From a virus (taxonomy: Duplodnaviria > Caudoviricetes): a DNA stretch of 64,000 nucleotides. The stretch lies in IMG/VR virus record IMGVR_UViG_3300021082_000023, positions 794 through 64,793 of that record. One strand, written 5' to 3'. A program made the translations under genes and the position numbers. The notes beneath the pieces are model-generated. The model did not search any database. It had not been told where the DNA came from and was given only the letters and a program-made list of their open reading frames with translations. Positions 14,259 to 18,538 of the stretch are shown here, piece by piece (positions within the stretch are counted from its first letter, which is position 1; every line of letters starts with the position of its first letter).

Positions 14259-15731
14259 CTAAGCCATCACGACAATTTTCCGTTTCCGAATCTGAGACAG
14301 CGCCTGCGACATCGCATCGACATCATCGTCATGCGCCCCACTGGGAAATGAGGCGTGCTGCTCGATGAAATCGTGGACCCAGCCGAGCGGCACAAACACA
14401 CCCTGGGCGTTCTTCTTACCCGGCAAATAAACGTTGTGGGCTTCCACATCTCCGGACACAGCATGGGCCCGGGCGACTTTGCCACCTTCCGGCTCAACGG
14501 GAATCATCCCGGAAATTTCCAATTTCAGATCGTCAATGATTGCCGAGCCGTTGGCCTTGTCTTCGATAAACTTCTTGTGGGCCTTGGGATGCTTTGCCGA
14601 CAGCGTTCGAATCGCCGCCTTGGTTTCTCCAAAGGTCATGCGCGCGTTGACCCGATCGACCAAATACTTTCGAGCGCCCAGCCTGCCCCACACATGCCCG
14701 GCCACGAAATCCGAGTCACTGGTTTTCTTGAACGTGCAATCCCAACTCTGGACCAGCTCCTCGAAATCACCGTCCTCGATCGAGTCCGGATCATAGAAGC
14801 GCCAGTCATCCCGCTTGAACACTCCGCCGCCTGCGGGAGAAGGACGCTGCTGATAGAGAGCGGCCCACTGGTAGCTGTTGATGACACCGCCATCACGGAT
14901 GGACAAAAGTGTTTCGAGTGAGAATCGTTCCACGCTCAACGGTTCGCCGATCTTGCGGTGGGGCTCGTCGACCTCGGCGAGTGCCGGAAAGTTGAGCACC
15001 TTCCATCGGCCCTTCTCGCGGTCCTGCAATCTCCCGATGACGTCATCCATATGCCAGCGTGTCTGCATCACAATCGCGCCACCGCCCTCCTGAAGACGCG
15101 GCAATGCGGCCGTTGCAACGATATTCCAGCAACTCTCGCGGATGGTTTCCGACATCGCCTCGTCGAAATCTTTAAGTAGATCGTCAACGATAACGACGTT
15201 CGCGGGGCGACCCGGGATACCGCCGGTGCGGCCAACGGCTCGATAGGTCCCTCCGTCGGAAGCGACAATATGGAATTCTTCCGCCGACCGTTTATAGCGA
15301 TTACTTTTCGCGTTCTCCGCAAGAATTCGCGTTGCTGGAAAGATTGCGGAATATTCCGGCGTATCGATGATCCTCTGAGTGTCACGGCTGAAACTTTGTG
15401 CGAGATCTGCGGAATAGGCGATGCCGACAATGTGTAGACTGGGATTCTTCCCGAATGCAAATGCAGGAAACCGACGACTCGTCAGTTCGGATTTCCCAAA
15501 CTGAGGTGGCGCGGTGAGAATCAGGCGCGGTGATCGTTTCTCTAAAACGTCTTCCAGGAACTGATCGAGCGCTGCCGCCACTCCTCGATGAAACCACCCG
15601 GCCCTATACGATGGCTTCGTCCGCAGCGTGAAATCAATCAGGCTGCGGCGCGCCAGTTCATCATCAATCTCGTCAAGTGTGGCGTCGCGCAGTTTTGGCT
15701 TTGAGGGCCCGGTACTGTAGGAGCTCTTCAT
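14259..15731 (-). CDS. terL: Terminase large subunit
   Basis: APPQFGKS (Walker A), VIVDD (Walker B), QSWD and HDDDVDA nuclease motifs; start uncertain, overlaps terS. Confidence 0.92.
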   Translation of the reverse strand: MKSSYSTGPSKPKLRDATLDEIDDELARRSLIDFTLRTKPSYRAGWFHRGVAAALDQFLEDVLEKRSPRLILTAPPQFGKSELTSRRFPAFAFGKNPSLHIVGIAYSADLAQSFSRDTQRIIDTPEYSAIFPATRILAENAKSNRYKRSAEEFHIVASDGGTYRAVGRTGGIPGRPANVVIVDDLLKDFDEAMSETIRESCWNIVATAALPRLQEGGGAIVMQTRWHMDDVIGRLQDREKGRWKVLNFPALAEVDEPHRKIGEPLSVERFSLETLLSIRDGGVINSYQWAALYQQRPSPAGGGVFKRDDWRFYDPDSIEDGDFEELVQSWDCTFKKTSDSDFVAGHVWGRLGARKYLVDRVNARMTFGETKAAIRTLSAKHPKAHKKFIEDKANGSAIIDDLKLEISGMIPVEPEGGKVARAHAVSGDVEAHNVYLPGKKNAQGVFVPLGWVHDFIEQHASFPSGAHDDDVDAMSQALSQIRKRKIVVMA

Positions 15732-16077
15732 TGCTGAGTTGGGAGAGGTCTTCCGTGTTGACCTGGATGGGCGGCCCGTCTGTAGTTCCGCTGAGTTCGA
15801 TTCGCTGATTGGGCTTGCCTTCAATGCGGTCTCCAATTTCGCGGATGGCGCCGACGTCCTTGGCATCAATACCCACCTCGAACACCAGCACGTGCGCCAG
15901 CTTGTCCGCCACAGTCGGATTGGAGCCGAGTCTCTTTTTTTGTTTCGAATTGAATTTGCGATTCAAGATGCGGCGAATCGCATCCGACAGCGGCTGCTTG
16001 GGACGGCCGGAAGGGTTCCCCGACTGACCCGGCTTCCAGGGCTTTAGATTTTCCAAGTTTTGGCCTCGAGAACTCAT
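15673..16077 (-). CDS. terS: Terminase small subunit (DUF5681-like)
   Basis: WKPGQSGNPSGRPK motif; directly upstream of terL. Confidence 0.8.
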   Translation of the reverse strand: MSSRGQNLENLKPWKPGQSGNPSGRPKQPLSDAIRRILNRKFNSKQKKRLGSNPTVADKLAHVLVFEVGIDAKDVGAIREIGDRIEGKPNQRIELSGTTDGPPIQVNTEDLSQLSNEELLQYRALKAKTARRHT

Positions 16078-16112
16078 GCATGGATATTAAACCTTGGGTG
16101 CAAGCGCGGCAT

Positions 16113-16604
16113 TTATTCGCCATCCCTTTCCGACGATTGTATTGCGCGTATCAAGCTCGGCGCTGTCTTCTGAATCAGCCGGAAGATTGGCCGCTCTTTG
16201 GCAATCAACGCCTGACGCATCTGCGCGCGCTCCAGCTTTTGCGCGTGTCGCACTTTCTGAGATTCCGTAAGCAGCCCAACGTTGGTATTGGTGCCAAGAA
16301 TTACGGCACGTGTTGTCAGGTCTTTTGATTTTCGAAGATACTGTCCCATCACTTCGTGGTTCTGTGACGCGGGGATGATCTCGAATGCCTGCCCGTTGTG
16401 GCCCTGCCCTGAAAGAAAGAAGCCTTCGCGTTCAAGCTCACGACGAATCCTTGAGACGTCCACTCCAAATCGAATTGACTTGATTGGTACCGACAGCTCC
16501 GCCTCGAAGAAATCGGCAGTGAATACGGACCCGTATTCGATTCCAATTTTCCTCATGCTGTCGAGGCAGTTCTTCCAGAGCGGGAGTCGGCGAACTTCAA
16601 TCAT
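16113..16604 (-). CDS. Putative partner protein of the RAMP/array locus (possible winged helix plus helical tail)
   Basis: GGAGG RBS just after the array B hairpin; 163 aa; LPLWK...YG...IRRELEREGFFL...G. Confidence 0.65.
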   Translation of the reverse strand: MIEVRRLPLWKNCLDSMRKIGIEYGSVFTADFFEAELSVPIKSIRFGVDVSRIRRELEREGFFLSGQGHNGQAFEIIPASQNHEVMGQYLRKSKDLTTRAVILGTNTNVGLLTESQKVRHAQKLERAQMRQALIAKERPIFRLIQKTAPSLIRAIQSSERDGE

Positions 16605-16624
16605 ATTGCCTCCAAATTAAAACT

Positions 16625-16750
16625 ATTCGGGGGCCGAAGCCCCCGAATGAGATTGCTGAGCTACGCTGAGCTCGGCAAAGCGCAGCGGCGGGGCTCTGCG
16701 CGGAGCAGCGACGCGCGATGCTATGCGAAGGAGCGCGGCGTGCTGGAAAT
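16625..16750 (-). ncRNA. Periodic RNA array B: (NN-NGC)n, CAGCAATC, UUCG hairpin
   Basis: 5-nt period; 13 of the first 17 triplets are GCN on the + strand (NGC in the RNA); ATTCGGGGGC-TTCG-GCCCCCGAAT at 16625-16648. Confidence 0.8.
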
Positions 16751-16779
16751 CGAACAATAATCTATTAGTCATGGTGCTC

Positions 16780-16898
16780 TCCCGGGAATAATCCCGGGAT
16801 GTGATTGCTGGGCAACACTACGCACTGCTAGGGCCTGCTGGGCACTGAGACGCTGCGCTCCGCTCTGCAGTGCCGCGCATAGTCGTGAACTCGAAACA
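16780..16898 (-). ncRNA. Periodic RNA array A: (NN-WGC)n, CAGCAATC, hairpin
   Basis: 5-nt period; 12 of the first 15 triplets are GCN on the + strand; TCCCGGGA-TTAT-TCCCGGGA at 16780-16799; begins right after the RAMP stop codon. Confidence 0.8.
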
Positions 16899-17462
16899 CT
16901 ACAAAACCTCCGATAGAAATCTTCCAAACTTTGGATGCCAGGCCCCGCAGCCGATTTGCCGTCCAGCGATGTCCTGTACGAGAACGATGTTTTTCCGATC
17001 AATGATTTCATCGTCGTATTCCAACTCAAACTCGCAGCTCCATCCGGTCGGGAACATTGGACGAATGCTCATCACGCCAAGCTTCGTCGGTTTTTTTAAT
17101 TGAAAGGTGCTGGCCACCCAGAGCGCCTCTAGTGTGCGAGGGCCTGAATAATTCAGAGGAACGATCTCGTTTGTTACCAAGACTGCCGCCTCCACGTCCT
17201 TTCCGAGCTTCAGCTTTCTGGCCCCAAACTTAATGCACGCTTCGATATTATCGTTCGGCATGAATGGACCCGACTCCTCATCGAAGTACAGCGAGCCCTC
17301 CCACCGTAATCGATAGAGCAGTTCGTAATCCGTTTCGGTTTTCTTCCGCTTGTTTGTGATCTCTTTGCAGCGCTTCACGTATTCATTCAAGGGATCCATC
17401 ATCAACCCGTTCGACATCAGCAATGGGCGAATGCCCGTCCATTTCATCTTGATCGTTTCCAT
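16899..17462 (-). CDS. RAMP/Cas7-like RNA-binding protein (Vipr-like)
   Basis: AGGAG RBS, 187 aa; WTGIRPLLM (beta1), FMPNDNIEACIKFGA, RPMFPTGWSCEF, C-terminal G-loop AGRQIGCGAWHPKFGRF. Confidence 0.8.
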   Translation of the reverse strand: METIKMKWTGIRPLLMSNGLMMDPLNEYVKRCKEITNKRKKTETDYELLYRLRWEGSLYFDEESGPFMPNDNIEACIKFGARKLKLGKDVEAAVLVTNEIVPLNYSGPRTLEALWVASTFQLKKPTKLGVMSIRPMFPTGWSCEFELEYDDEIIDRKNIVLVQDIAGRQIGCGAWHPKFGRFLSEVL

Positions 17463-17534
17463 CTGTCGCTCCTGTTTCAACTCCAAGTTTTGCCGGAACC
17501 GTCCGCCTCTCGCTCGCGGCCCCGGCAAACTCAT

Positions 17535-17987
17535 CTACGGATTTGGATCTTCCGGCGTATTTGCGGTCAGCGCGGCGAGTGTCTCCGCAGTCTGATCCGA
17601 AATCTTTGTGGAAATGGCACCAAGTGCCGCCTCCTGTTCCGCGGTGAGTCCGGGGTGATCGGCGATGTATTTATCCACCGCTGCCTGCACCATTGCCGGA
17701 ACGCCCTTGATGTACGTAACGGCCGAATCCTGGACCGTTTCGCCTGCTTCAACTTTTGCGGTCAAATCCGCAATAACTTCGTCAATCGTCATTTTGTTTT
17801 TCTCCGTCGAAATGGGGTTGTGCGTTACAGGACGCAGGATGTACGCCTCCAACGCGGTTGTTAATTTGTCATTGGATTGAGACAGGCGCCTGCTCAACGA
17901 CTGCAGCTGTCTCACCCGCTGCCGCTGATTCTCGTGATCCTCGTTTTCGTGAATGTGAACGTGGATATGAATTTCCGGGAATTTCAT
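17535..17987 (-). CDS. Coiled-coil protein with an N-terminal HIHVHIH motif and C-terminal ANTP
   Basis: ATGA overlap with the upstream gene; heptad pattern. Confidence 0.6.
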   Translation of the reverse strand: MKFPEIHIHVHIHENEDHENQRQRVRQLQSLSRRLSQSNDKLTTALEAYILRPVTHNPISTEKNKMTIDEVIADLTAKVEAGETVQDSAVTYIKGVPAMVQAAVDKYIADHPGLTAEQEAALGAISTKISDQTAETLAALTANTPEDPNP

Positions 17988-18538
17988 TTCGTCATACTCC
18001 AACTGATTGCTGTTGTGTTATTCGCAGCGTCCCAAATGGTGAGACGCAGAGTGTGAAGTCCGATCGGAACTGTCTTTGCGTTCCAGCGAACGTAAATGGG
18101 ACTGGGCTGCACATCGATTCCATTCCCAAACGGCGTGGCCAGCTTGCCGTCGACTTCGAGCTTTCCGCCCACAACTCCGACGTTGTCCGTAGCGGTCACC
18201 GTGAGCGGCAGTCCGTTATTCGCCGCCAGTAGCTTCACGTTGCCCGGCAGCAAGTTCACTCCGGCGCTATTGGTCACGCTGACAATCACGGGGCTCTGCG
18301 TGTCGTTGCTCTGCGGCGAGATTCCGATGCTCGCCTGCAGCTGCGCGAATGGCGTGTTGGTGAATTTGATCTGTACGGGCGGGCCATTGCCGACGATGGG
18401 CAGGCACTGGTAGGCGACGTCGTGATCGGGGAGCTGTGGGGGTCCAGCCCAAGCGATGACTGCCAGCGAAAGCAGAATCACGGCAGTCGTCAGGTAATTT
18501 ATTTTTCGGTGAGTCGATCGCGCTTCGTTCAATTTCAA
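17984..18538 (-). CDS. Exported protein with a bacterial Ig-like (Big_7-type) domain
   Basis: Hydrophobic N-terminus; VTATDNVGV...WNAKTVPIGLHTLRLTIWDAANN. Confidence 0.65.
   Translation of the reverse strand: MKLNEARSTHRKINYLTTAVILLSLAVIAWAGPPQLPDHDVAYQCLPIVGNGPPVQIKFTNTPFAQLQASIGISPQSNDTQSPVIVSVTNSAGVNLLPGNVKLLAANNGLPLTVTATDNVGVVGGKLEVDGKLATPFGNGIDVQPSPIYVRWNAKTVPIGLHTLRLTIWDAANNTTAISWSMTK

What the first reader, a model, noticed from the sequence alone, without database searches (positions are those of the whole stretch)
16653..16749. Array B decodes to a helical, Ala/Lys/Glu-rich peptide under the same code
Seen: dinucleotides TT GA AC GA CG AA CA GC GC GC GA GC GC AT AT AA GC GC CT AA give [F/L][E/D]T[E/D]R[K/N][Q/H]AAA[E/D]AA[I/M][I/M][K/N]AAL[K/N], with no TA or TG that could be a stop. 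The set differs from array A, so the two units carry independent information. I found no match by eye among this window's proteins. Inference: a second target in a coiled-coil gene of another element.
Basis: partly seen in the sequence, partly recalled or inferred. Interest (0 to 1): 0.75.

Follow-up and report, generated by a model that had tools for sequence, protein, structure and literature searches.

The report
Phage VIPR guide RNA, target unknown

Summary
At 16653-16752 a variable dinucleotide alternates with a near-constant triplet, and the 20 dinucleotides are exactly as listed. This 5-base period occurs nowhere else in the 64.8-kb phage genome except in array A.

The gene upstream (16899-17462, minus strand) is a Vipr protein: phmmer E 2.7e-35 to PDB 36pp, "SUSP1 Vipr protein". 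Arrays A and B are therefore most likely vrRNAs of a VIPR system (bioRxiv 10.64898/2026.04.26.720920, .720927 and 2026.10.15.759431). They would be transcribed on the minus strand, and each ends in a hairpin tail. The order Vipr, arrays, ~160-aa accessory gene recurs in all 15 distinct related loci I examined.

This member is a variant. Its scaffold is NGC, not GGY (G at position 1 in 3 of 32 units), and the two Vipr residues that read that G in SUSP1 are replaced (H17 to S, D177 to A).

No target was found. Seeded searches of IMG/VR, species-representative genomes and JGI metagenomes gave at most 72% NN match, against the published 80% threshold. Whole-contig scans of related phages, GenBank phages and 401 Acidobacteriota genomes also gave nothing. 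The "coiled-coil gene" idea is untested.

This scan has met VIPR before on other DNA.

The parts
16653..16737 (-). vrRNA B repeat tract: 17 in-phase pentamers of NGC + NN on the RNA strand. The NN dinucleotides are the guide positions. The 3'-most unit, AGC-AA, is constant in related arrays.
   Evidence: By analogy with vrRNAs of SUSP1 VIPR.
16738..16752 (-). Three further 5' units in the same phase with degenerate triplets (CAC, TCC, CGA). It is uncertain whether they are part of the guide.
16615..16652 (-). vrRNA B tail: UCUCAU, then a 10-bp G+C-rich hairpin with a UUCG loop (16625-16648), then a U-rich run (16615-16624). It has the form of an intrinsic terminator and lies about 10 nt before the RBS of the next gene.
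   Evidence: The same 'CAU + hairpin' tail with different stem sequences occurs in array A and in L011.
16805..16879 (-). vrRNA A repeat tract: 15 pentamers with NN different from B.
16781..16804 (-). vrRNA A tail: UCACAU plus the hairpin CCCGGG-AUUAUU-CCCGGG.
16899..17462 (-). vipr gene, 187 aa from the internal ATG. The ORF is open back to 17534. It encodes a RAMP-like protein expected to form a filament on the vrRNA.
   Evidence: phmmer E 2.7e-35 to PDB 36pp 'SUSP1 Vipr protein'. phrog_4652. About 39% identity to Felixounavirus proteins. Alignment.
16113..16604 (-). vap-like accessory gene, 163 aa. The model shows an N-terminal winged-helix-like domain followed by long helices.
   Evidence: It lies downstream of Vipr and the arrays in all 15 distinct related loci examined. 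AF2 model pLDDT 86. Only weak fold matches to winged-helix regulators, E about 0.1. No Pfam or PHROG hit.

Best explanation
Array B is the gene of a VIPR guide RNA (vrRNA). It is one of two encoded between the phage's vipr gene and a vap-like accessory gene. The RNA is made from the minus strand and ends at its own hairpin/terminator.

The mechanism below is inferred from the SUSP1 structures. One Vipr protomer binds each 5-nt unit. It buries the constant triplet, here NGC, and presents the two variable bases. The 16 to 19 NN dinucleotides then pair with a DNA strand that reads NN-x-NN-x, with one target base skipped per unit. This forms a Vipr-coated gapped R-loop that blocks transcription of the target.

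The decoded target is 5'-GA.AC.GA.CG.AA.CA.GC.GC.GC.GA.GC.GC.AT.AT.AA.GC(.GC.CT.AA)-3' on either strand. The most likely owner is a competing phage, prophage or satellite of the same, unknown host.

Shown here: the repeat anatomy, Vipr homology, conserved synteny, hypervariable NN in relatives, and absence of self-targeting. Inferred: expression of the RNA, filament formation, the 1-nt skip rule for this NGC variant, and the nature of the target.
For: (1) The adjacent gene is a Vipr: phmmer E 2.7e-35 over 185 residues to PDB 36pp. The residues that hold G2 (R138, W178) and the DNA-contact residues (K33, R39, K88) are conserved.

(2) The 5-nt period with a constant G-C core is unique to the two arrays in the genome.

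(3) Homologues of the 163-aa gene lie in 15 distinct loci from other phage contigs and in different genomic contexts. Each has a Vipr gene upstream. In the 14 loci parsed, 5-nt arrays with hairpin tails were found, lying between the two genes in most of them. In one locus (L154) the two genes are 27 nt apart.

(4) In the sister clade L009/L150/L152/L148, Vipr is 86-97% identical and the GGC scaffold and tail are conserved. The NN dinucleotides and the number of arrays (2-5) differ.

(5) There is no self-target. The best 1-nt-skip match in the phage's own genome is 60-67%, equal to the shuffled-guide null, as reported for natural VIPRs.

(6) A terminator-like hairpin plus U-run lies on the gene strand directly after array B.

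(7) The published code and mechanism are.
Against: No target with at least 80% NN match was found in any collection, so function as a guide is not demonstrated for B.

The scaffold lacks the first G of GGY (3 of 32 units). The 1-nt skip rule was established for GGY systems only.

The G-C core is palindromic, so the + strand also parses as xGC+NN. Strand assignment rests on context: gene orientation, terminator, tail, and relatives with GGC repeats.

Seven of the 20 triplets in B are degenerate.

There are no expression data.
Confidence: 0.88

Rival explanations
1. Array B is a real vrRNA, but its target is not a gene of a rival element. It could point at the host chromosome (a decoy or regulatory site) or at a rival's VIPR locus. 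It could also be a decayed guide whose target no longer exists.
For: The October 2026 preprint describes vrRNAs that redirect VIPR to host decoy sites, and solo vrRNAs aimed at other vipr genes. No target was found in phage collections. Seven of B's 20 triplets are degenerate.
Against: Guides A and B do not match the Vipr/vap loci of 15 related systems. There was no hit with 3 or fewer mismatches in 401 Acidobacteriota genomes, and no extended hit in the species-representative genomes. The host is unknown, so the host-decoy idea is essentially untested.
Confidence: 0.25
2. The array is a protein-binding leader or DNA site unrelated to guiding. One option is a TRAP-like attenuator, with triplets every 5 nt ahead of a terminator controlling the packaging genes. 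Another is a pac/cos-type terminase recognition region.
For: It lies directly upstream of the DUF5681/terL/portal genes. A terminator-like hairpin follows array B. Triplets with 2-nt spacers resemble TRAP binding sites (my own knowledge).
Against: The same gene-array-gene module sits in lysis and replication contexts in other phages. A phage with 70% identical TerL lacks it. The neighbouring gene is a Vipr with a solved RNA-filament structure.
Confidence: 0.03
3. The region only encodes a small peptide: a 37-aa ORF on the + strand (16647-16760) or a 49-aa ORF on the - strand (16623-16772).
For: Both ORFs exist. The minus-strand ORF has a GGGAG about 7 nt before its ATG.
Against: A 5-nt period cannot come from codons. 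Three of six frames across B and two of six across A are stop-free simply because the DNA is G+C-rich. The arrays in relatives keep the scaffold and vary the NN, which is not a coding pattern.
Confidence: 0.02

Closest known systems
Type II VIPR system of Escherichia phage SUSP1 and the Pseudomonas fulva prophage (Vipr + vap1 + vrRNAs; bioRxiv 10.64898/2026.04.26.720920 and 10.64898/2026.04.26.720927; PDB 36pp)
   Same: The Vipr protein is homologous (E 2.7e-35, about 39-42% identity). The vrRNAs are about 100 nt and built of tandem pentamers with a constant triplet and a variable NN. Each has a structured 3' tail. A small accessory gene with a winged-helix-like fold is present. The system is phage-borne, and no self-targeting was found.
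   Different: The scaffold is NGC instead of GGY. The G1-reading residues H17 and D177 are S and A here, and R179 is H. The arrays lie between vipr and the accessory gene, not upstream of vipr or downstream of vap1. The tail is a simple hairpin, or a terminator for B, with no evident pseudoknot. The accessory protein has no detectable sequence similarity to the vap1 gene position of phage HY02 (BLASTP E 2.6, hhalign probability 0.2%). I could not assign a VIPR type because the preprint's supplementary tables are not held.
Alternative vrRNA repeat classes named in the discovery preprint (NNNGG, YNNNG, NNNNG)
   Same: Written in that notation, the window's unit is C-NN-N-G, which is YNNNG.
   Different: The text I could read gives no targeting rule, structure or residue basis for these classes. 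The link to loss of H17/D177 is my inference from 16 loci, in which only two related ones (the window and L011) show it.
Class 1 CRISPR crRNA bound by a Cas7 backbone
   Same: A RAMP-fold protein polymerises along a guide RNA, flips bases out periodically, and the guide is capped by a hairpin handle.
   Different: There is no CRISPR repeat-spacer array and there are no cas genes. The period is 5 nt, with only 2 paired bases per unit, against 6 nt with 5 paired. The target period is 3 nt.

Membership tests
VIPR system (vrRNA) | A Vipr (minimal RAMP) protein gene lies next to the array | tested here: met
   phmmer E 2.7e-35 to PDB 36pp SUSP1 Vipr. The alignment shows the G-loop GxGxW(R/H)PKFGRF and R138 conserved.
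VIPR system (vrRNA) | Tandem 5-nt units with a constant triplet alternating with a variable NN, at least 4 units (typically 9-16) | tested here: met
   17 units (up to 20) in B and 15 in A. Position 2 is G in 27 of 32 units and position 3 is C in 30 of 32. NN is variable.
VIPR system (vrRNA) | The canonical GGY triplet, with the first G conserved | tested here: not met
   Position 1 is G in only 3 of 32 units. This corresponds to the 'YNNNG' alternative listed in the preprint, so it marks a variant rather than an exclusion.
VIPR system (vrRNA) | A conserved structured 3' tail caps the repeat tract | tested here: met
   AA-UC(N)CAU plus a G+C-rich hairpin follows A, B and the L011 arrays, with different stem sequences. 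No pseudoknot as in SUSP1 was seen.
VIPR system (vrRNA) | NN is hypervariable between related loci while the scaffold and tail are kept | tested here: met
   In the sister clade L009/L150/L152/L148, Vipr is 86-97% identical and the NN differ. In the window's own clade only L011 is available (69% Vipr identity), and all its NN differ.
VIPR system (vrRNA) | A linked accessory (vap) gene | tested here: met
   The ~160-aa gene lies downstream of Vipr and the arrays in all 15 distinct related loci. The fold is winged-helix-like, but matches are weak. It is not similar in sequence to the vap1 position of HY02.
VIPR system (vrRNA) | No self-target at or above 80% NN match under the 1-nt skip rule | tested here: met
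   The best match in the phage's own genome is 60-67%, equal to the shuffled null.
VIPR system (vrRNA) | A natural target with at least 80% NN match under the 1-nt skip rule | tested here: inconclusive
   None was found. The best was 72% with the seed included, and extensions beyond the seeds were at chance. The collection scans needed 9-10 perfectly matching units, so imperfect targets could be missed.
VIPR system (vrRNA) | The vrRNA is expressed, co-purifies with Vipr, and directs DNA binding or repression | not testable with these tools
   This needs sRNA-seq, pull-down and reporter assays.
CRISPR array | Identical direct repeats separated by unique spacers, with cas genes | tested here: not met
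   The tandem-repeat finder reports no such array in this region. The two hairpins differ in sequence. No Cas family turned up among the ten neighbouring genes scanned against Pfam and PHROGs.

The most novel reading that the evidence does not exclude
In this NGC-scaffold clade (the window and L011), the freed position 1 of each pentamer might also carry targeting information. The code would then be 3-of-5 rather than 2-of-5, and a search under the 2-base rule would find no target. A milder version is that replacing the G1-reading residues (H17 to S/A, D177 to A/T, R179 to H) created a Vipr subfamily with a two-base scaffold. That would be a natural experiment on how the scaffold is read.
Probability: 0.07. 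Interest if true: 0.6.

Novelty: new member of a known kind. Interest (0 to 1): 0.3.

Why it matters
VIPR is a very recent class of RNA-guided DNA recognition, known from preprints of April to October 2026. This locus adds a member from an uncultivated 64.8-kb temperate-type phage. Its gene order is different (vipr, vrRNAs, accessory gene), and the module sits just ahead of the packaging genes.

It also has a relaxed NGC scaffold that goes together with loss of the two residues that read the first G in the SUSP1 structure. That pairing gives a simple, testable hypothesis on how Vipr proteins define their scaffold. It is also a practical warning: callers that look for GGY will miss such arrays.

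For the finding as given, the decoding of array B, the practical result is negative. The code is right, but the target remains unidentified.

Tried and rejected
Before the PDB hit I considered several other explanations.
- A TRAP-like attenuator with triplets every 5 nt, or a terminase pac/cos site. Rejected because the module recurs in non-packaging contexts and the neighbouring gene is a Vipr.
- A small ORF. Rejected because of the 5-nt period and because open frames are uninformative in G+C-rich DNA.
- A known RNA family. Rfam gave nothing in 15500-18000.
- G-quadruplex or self-pairing of the array. Not pursued, because the window's units lack GG.

Target searches that gave nothing:
- Own genome under skip rules 0 to 2.
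- IMG/VR exact seeds for B: units 1-9 (0 hits), 2-10 (1 hit, 55%), 10-18 (6 hits, at most 65%), 4-13 (4 hits, at most 67%).
- IMG/VR seed for A, units 2-10: 0 hits.
- Species-representative genomes, seed units 2-10: 115 hits, best 70%, extension 0-9 of 20 bases, which is at chance.
- JGI metagenomes, seed units 2-11: 9 hits, best 72%.
- Four whole contigs of related phages: 61-69%, equal to the null.
- Cross-tests between the window's guides and the related VIPR loci, and between the relatives' guides and this genome. All were at background; a few 8-9-unit calls of the crude array caller reached 81-83%, a level expected by chance for such short guides and not calibrated against a null.
- tblastn of both decoded peptides against GenBank phages: no match.
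- 401 Acidobacteriota genomes with 3 or fewer mismatches: none.

Host inference failed. The best cultured-phage TerL is 42% identical and the best Acidobacteriota prophage TerL is 41%. The KhpA atlas taxa are mixed. No tRNA gene was found.

Full report
**The observation**

The + strand from 16653 parses into a dinucleotide followed by a triplet, twenty times over. Thirteen of the twenty triplets are GCN.

I counted GC at a fixed 5-base phase in 12-unit windows. Array B reaches 9 and array A (16805-16879) reaches 10. No other place in the window or the 64,793-base genome exceeds 6. The periodicity is therefore real and confined to the 294-base gap between two minus-strand genes. The absence of TA and TG among 20 dinucleotides has a chance of about 0.07 and carries no weight.

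**Context**

The window is almost the whole of a virus record. On the minus strand, the genes downstream of the gap are:
- a 163-aa gene with no Pfam or PHROG family,
- a DUF5681 gene,
- the large terminase,
- the portal.

Upstream of the gap lies a 211-aa ORF of phrog_4652, function unknown.

Read on the gene strand, each array is a run of (N-G-C)+(N-N) units ending in AGC-AA. It is followed by UC(N)CAU and a G+C-rich hairpin. The hairpin after B (16625-16648) is followed by a U-run and scores as an intrinsic terminator. It ends about 10 nt before the ribosome-binding site of the 163-aa gene. Rfam has no match.

**Identity**

The upstream protein matches PDB 36pp, "SUSP1 Vipr protein", with E 2.7e-35 over 185 residues. 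It is about 39% identical to a hypothetical protein of about 130 Felix O1-type and other phages. Three 2026 preprints describe the system.
- VIPR stands for Viral Interference Programmable Repeat. It consists of a small RAMP-like Vipr protein, an accessory gene (vap), and ~100-nt vrRNAs built of 9-16 pentamers in which GGY alternates with hypervariable NN, capped by a structured tail.
- One Vipr protomer binds each unit. It buries the GGY and exposes the NN.
- The NN pair with DNA that has one skipped base per unit, usually the codon wobble base. Targets lie on either strand and need no PAM.
- The result is transcriptional silencing of rival phages, prophages or satellites.

**Comparative support**

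The 163-aa protein has 41 homologues in metagenomic and viral assemblies. I could fetch 15 distinct loci: L007, L009, L011, L145, L146 and L148-L156. In every one a Vipr gene lies upstream on the same strand. In the 14 I parsed, 5-nt arrays with hairpin tails were found, mostly in a 130-590-nt gap between the two genes. In L154 the two genes are only 27 nt apart.

The flanking genes differ between loci (lysis, replication, Mu-like head). A phage whose TerL is 70% identical to this one lacks the module. The three parts therefore travel together as a cassette.

In the clade L009/L150/L152/L148, Vipr is 86-97% identical. The GGC scaffold and the tail (CACACACUGCAU plus hairpin) are kept. The NN and the number of vrRNAs (2 to 5) differ. 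The first guide of three loci shares its first eight units (identical in two, two units different in the third) and then diverges. This is the hypervariability expected of guides.

**What is particular here**

In the window, position 1 of the triplet is G in only 3 of 32 units. Position 2 is G in 27 and position 3 is C in 30. In L009 position 1 is G in 39 of 43 units. In the preprint's notation the window's unit is YNNNG, one of the alternative classes it lists without further detail.

In the SUSP1 structure, G1 is read by H17 and D177, G2 by R138 and W178, and Y3 sits in a pocket that includes R179.

| Locus or loci | Residue at H17 | Residue at D177 | Residue at R179 | G at position 1 |
|---|---|---|---|---|
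| Window | S | A | H | 9% |
| L011 (nearest relative) | A | T | H | 17% |
| Ten loci keeping H/D/R | H | D | R | 69-92% in six of ten |

R138, W178, K33, R39 and K88 are conserved in the window. Four of the H/D/R loci gave lower G1 values (33-59%) with my crude array caller.

I read this as a Vipr subfamily that has given up reading the first G. The evidence is one two-member clade, so it is suggestive only.

Position 1 is depleted in G rather than evenly variable. That argues against it being a free guide base, but I could not test a 3-base code.

**Strand**

The conserved core G-C is its own reverse complement, so the + strand also parses as xGC+NN in another phase. I assign the RNA to the minus strand for four reasons:
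- vipr and the accessory gene are on that strand.
- The terminator is on that strand.
- The constant AA-UC(N)CAU-hairpin tail follows the arrays on that strand.
- Relatives with the asymmetric GGC repeat have it on the gene strand.

**The accessory gene**

An AlphaFold model built from a 32-sequence alignment (pLDDT 86) shows a small N-terminal helix/strand domain followed by long helices. Foldseek gives only weak matches (E about 0.1), mostly to winged-helix DNA-binding proteins such as MarR, ScpB, SSV1 F-112 and Z-alpha. That agrees with the preprint's statement that vap proteins of several types are predicted winged-helix or HTH DNA binders. It does not prove it. There is no sequence similarity to the gene at the vap1 position of phage HY02.

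**The target of array B**

Under the published rule the target reads 5'-(TT.)GA.AC.GA.CG.AA.CA.GC.GC.GC.GA.GC.GC.AT.AT.AA.GC(.GC.CT.AA)-3' on either strand.
- **Own genome.** The best match is 60-67%, the same as for shuffled guides. This fits the reported absence of self-targeting.
- **Public collections.** These could only be scanned for exact patterns, so I used seeds of 9-10 consecutive units and scored the extension. The table below gives the results.
- **Related phages.** Whole contigs of four related phages gave 61-69%, equal to the null.
- **Cross-tests.** Guides of relatives against this genome, and this phage's guides against their loci, stayed at background. A few very short calls of 8-9 units reached 81-83%, which is expected by chance for such short guides and was not calibrated.
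- **Peptide search.** tblastn of the two decoded peptides against GenBank phages found nothing.
- **One candidate phylum.** 401 Acidobacteriota genomes had no site with 3 or fewer mismatches.

| Collection | Seed (B units) | Hits | Best overall NN match |
|---|---|---|---|
| IMG/VR | 1-9 | 0 | none |
| IMG/VR | 2-10 | 1 | 55% |
| IMG/VR | 10-18 | 6 | 65% |
| IMG/VR | 4-13 | 4 | 67% |
| Species-representative genomes | 2-10 | 115 | 70% |
| JGI metagenomes | 2-11 | 9 | 72% |

In the species-representative genomes, the 20 bases beyond the seed matched 0 to 9 times with a mode of 4. That is what chance gives.

The host is unknown. No sequence reaches the published criterion of 80%.

The seed hits do fall in frame with codons, for example ...ETERKHAAA... 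inside a gene with a methyltransferase domain in L014. That is expected for any GA.AC.GA.CG.AA.CA.GC.GC.GC match in G+C-rich coding DNA.

**The "helical Ala/Lys/Glu-rich peptide"**

The decoding is formally correct for one strand. VIPR targets occur on both strands, and the other reading gives [FL][SR]AA[FL][IM][IM]AASAAA[CW][FL]RSVS, a hydrophobic segment. Eight of the 20 dinucleotides are GC, which reads as Ala in either orientation and is common in G+C-rich genes. The peptide's character says little. A coiled-coil gene as target is a guess that I could neither support nor refute.

**Verdict**

The feature belongs to a kind already described in 2026, which this scan has met several times on other DNA, including a CGC-scaffold case. 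The specific claim about the target is unproven.

The small additions from this locus are the NGC scaffold coupled to changes in the G1-reading residues, the vipr-vrRNA-accessory gene order, and a distinct accessory protein family.

Noticed in passing
L009:2668-2707, L152:1948-1987, L148:2259-2298: In three related VIPR loci the first vrRNA shares its first eight units (NN = TC/GC TT GT GA GA GC AT AA, with two changes in L148) and then diverges completely. Guides may evolve by recombination within the repeat tract, or there may be a conserved 5' module.
   Followed up: no
window 16653-16879, position 1 of each pentamer: Position 1 of the scaffold triplet is depleted in G rather than random: A 13, C 8, T 8, G 3 of 32 here, and 9 of 52 G in L011. 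G may be avoided there, possibly to prevent register slippage into the G2 pocket.
   Followed up: partly
L146:352-437 and L146:1081-1357: This relative has arrays both upstream and downstream of its vipr gene. Its Vipr N-terminus, as called, lacks the conserved beta1 segment (TGIRPLLM), so the gene start or frame may be miscalled.
   Followed up: no
L036, L040, L063, L095, L098 and other Dehalococcoidia MAG loci (genome-contig hits): The 9-unit seed of guide B hits a multi-copy gene in several Dehalococcoidia genomes. The peptide LETERNQAAATIDWRFSTTN recurs at least five times in one contig, so this is probably a repeated mobile-element gene. Beyond the seed the match is at chance.
   Followed up: partly
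Its nearest clusters come from mixed phyla (Bacillota, Thermodesulfobacteriota, Acidobacteriota), so it gives no clear host.
   Followed up: partly
window 14259-15869 vs L002: A phage contig with 70% identical TerL (IMGVR_UViG_3300046472_000096) has a different set of genes upstream of its terminase and no VIPR module. The module is an insertion or replacement at the start of the packaging operon.
   Followed up: partly
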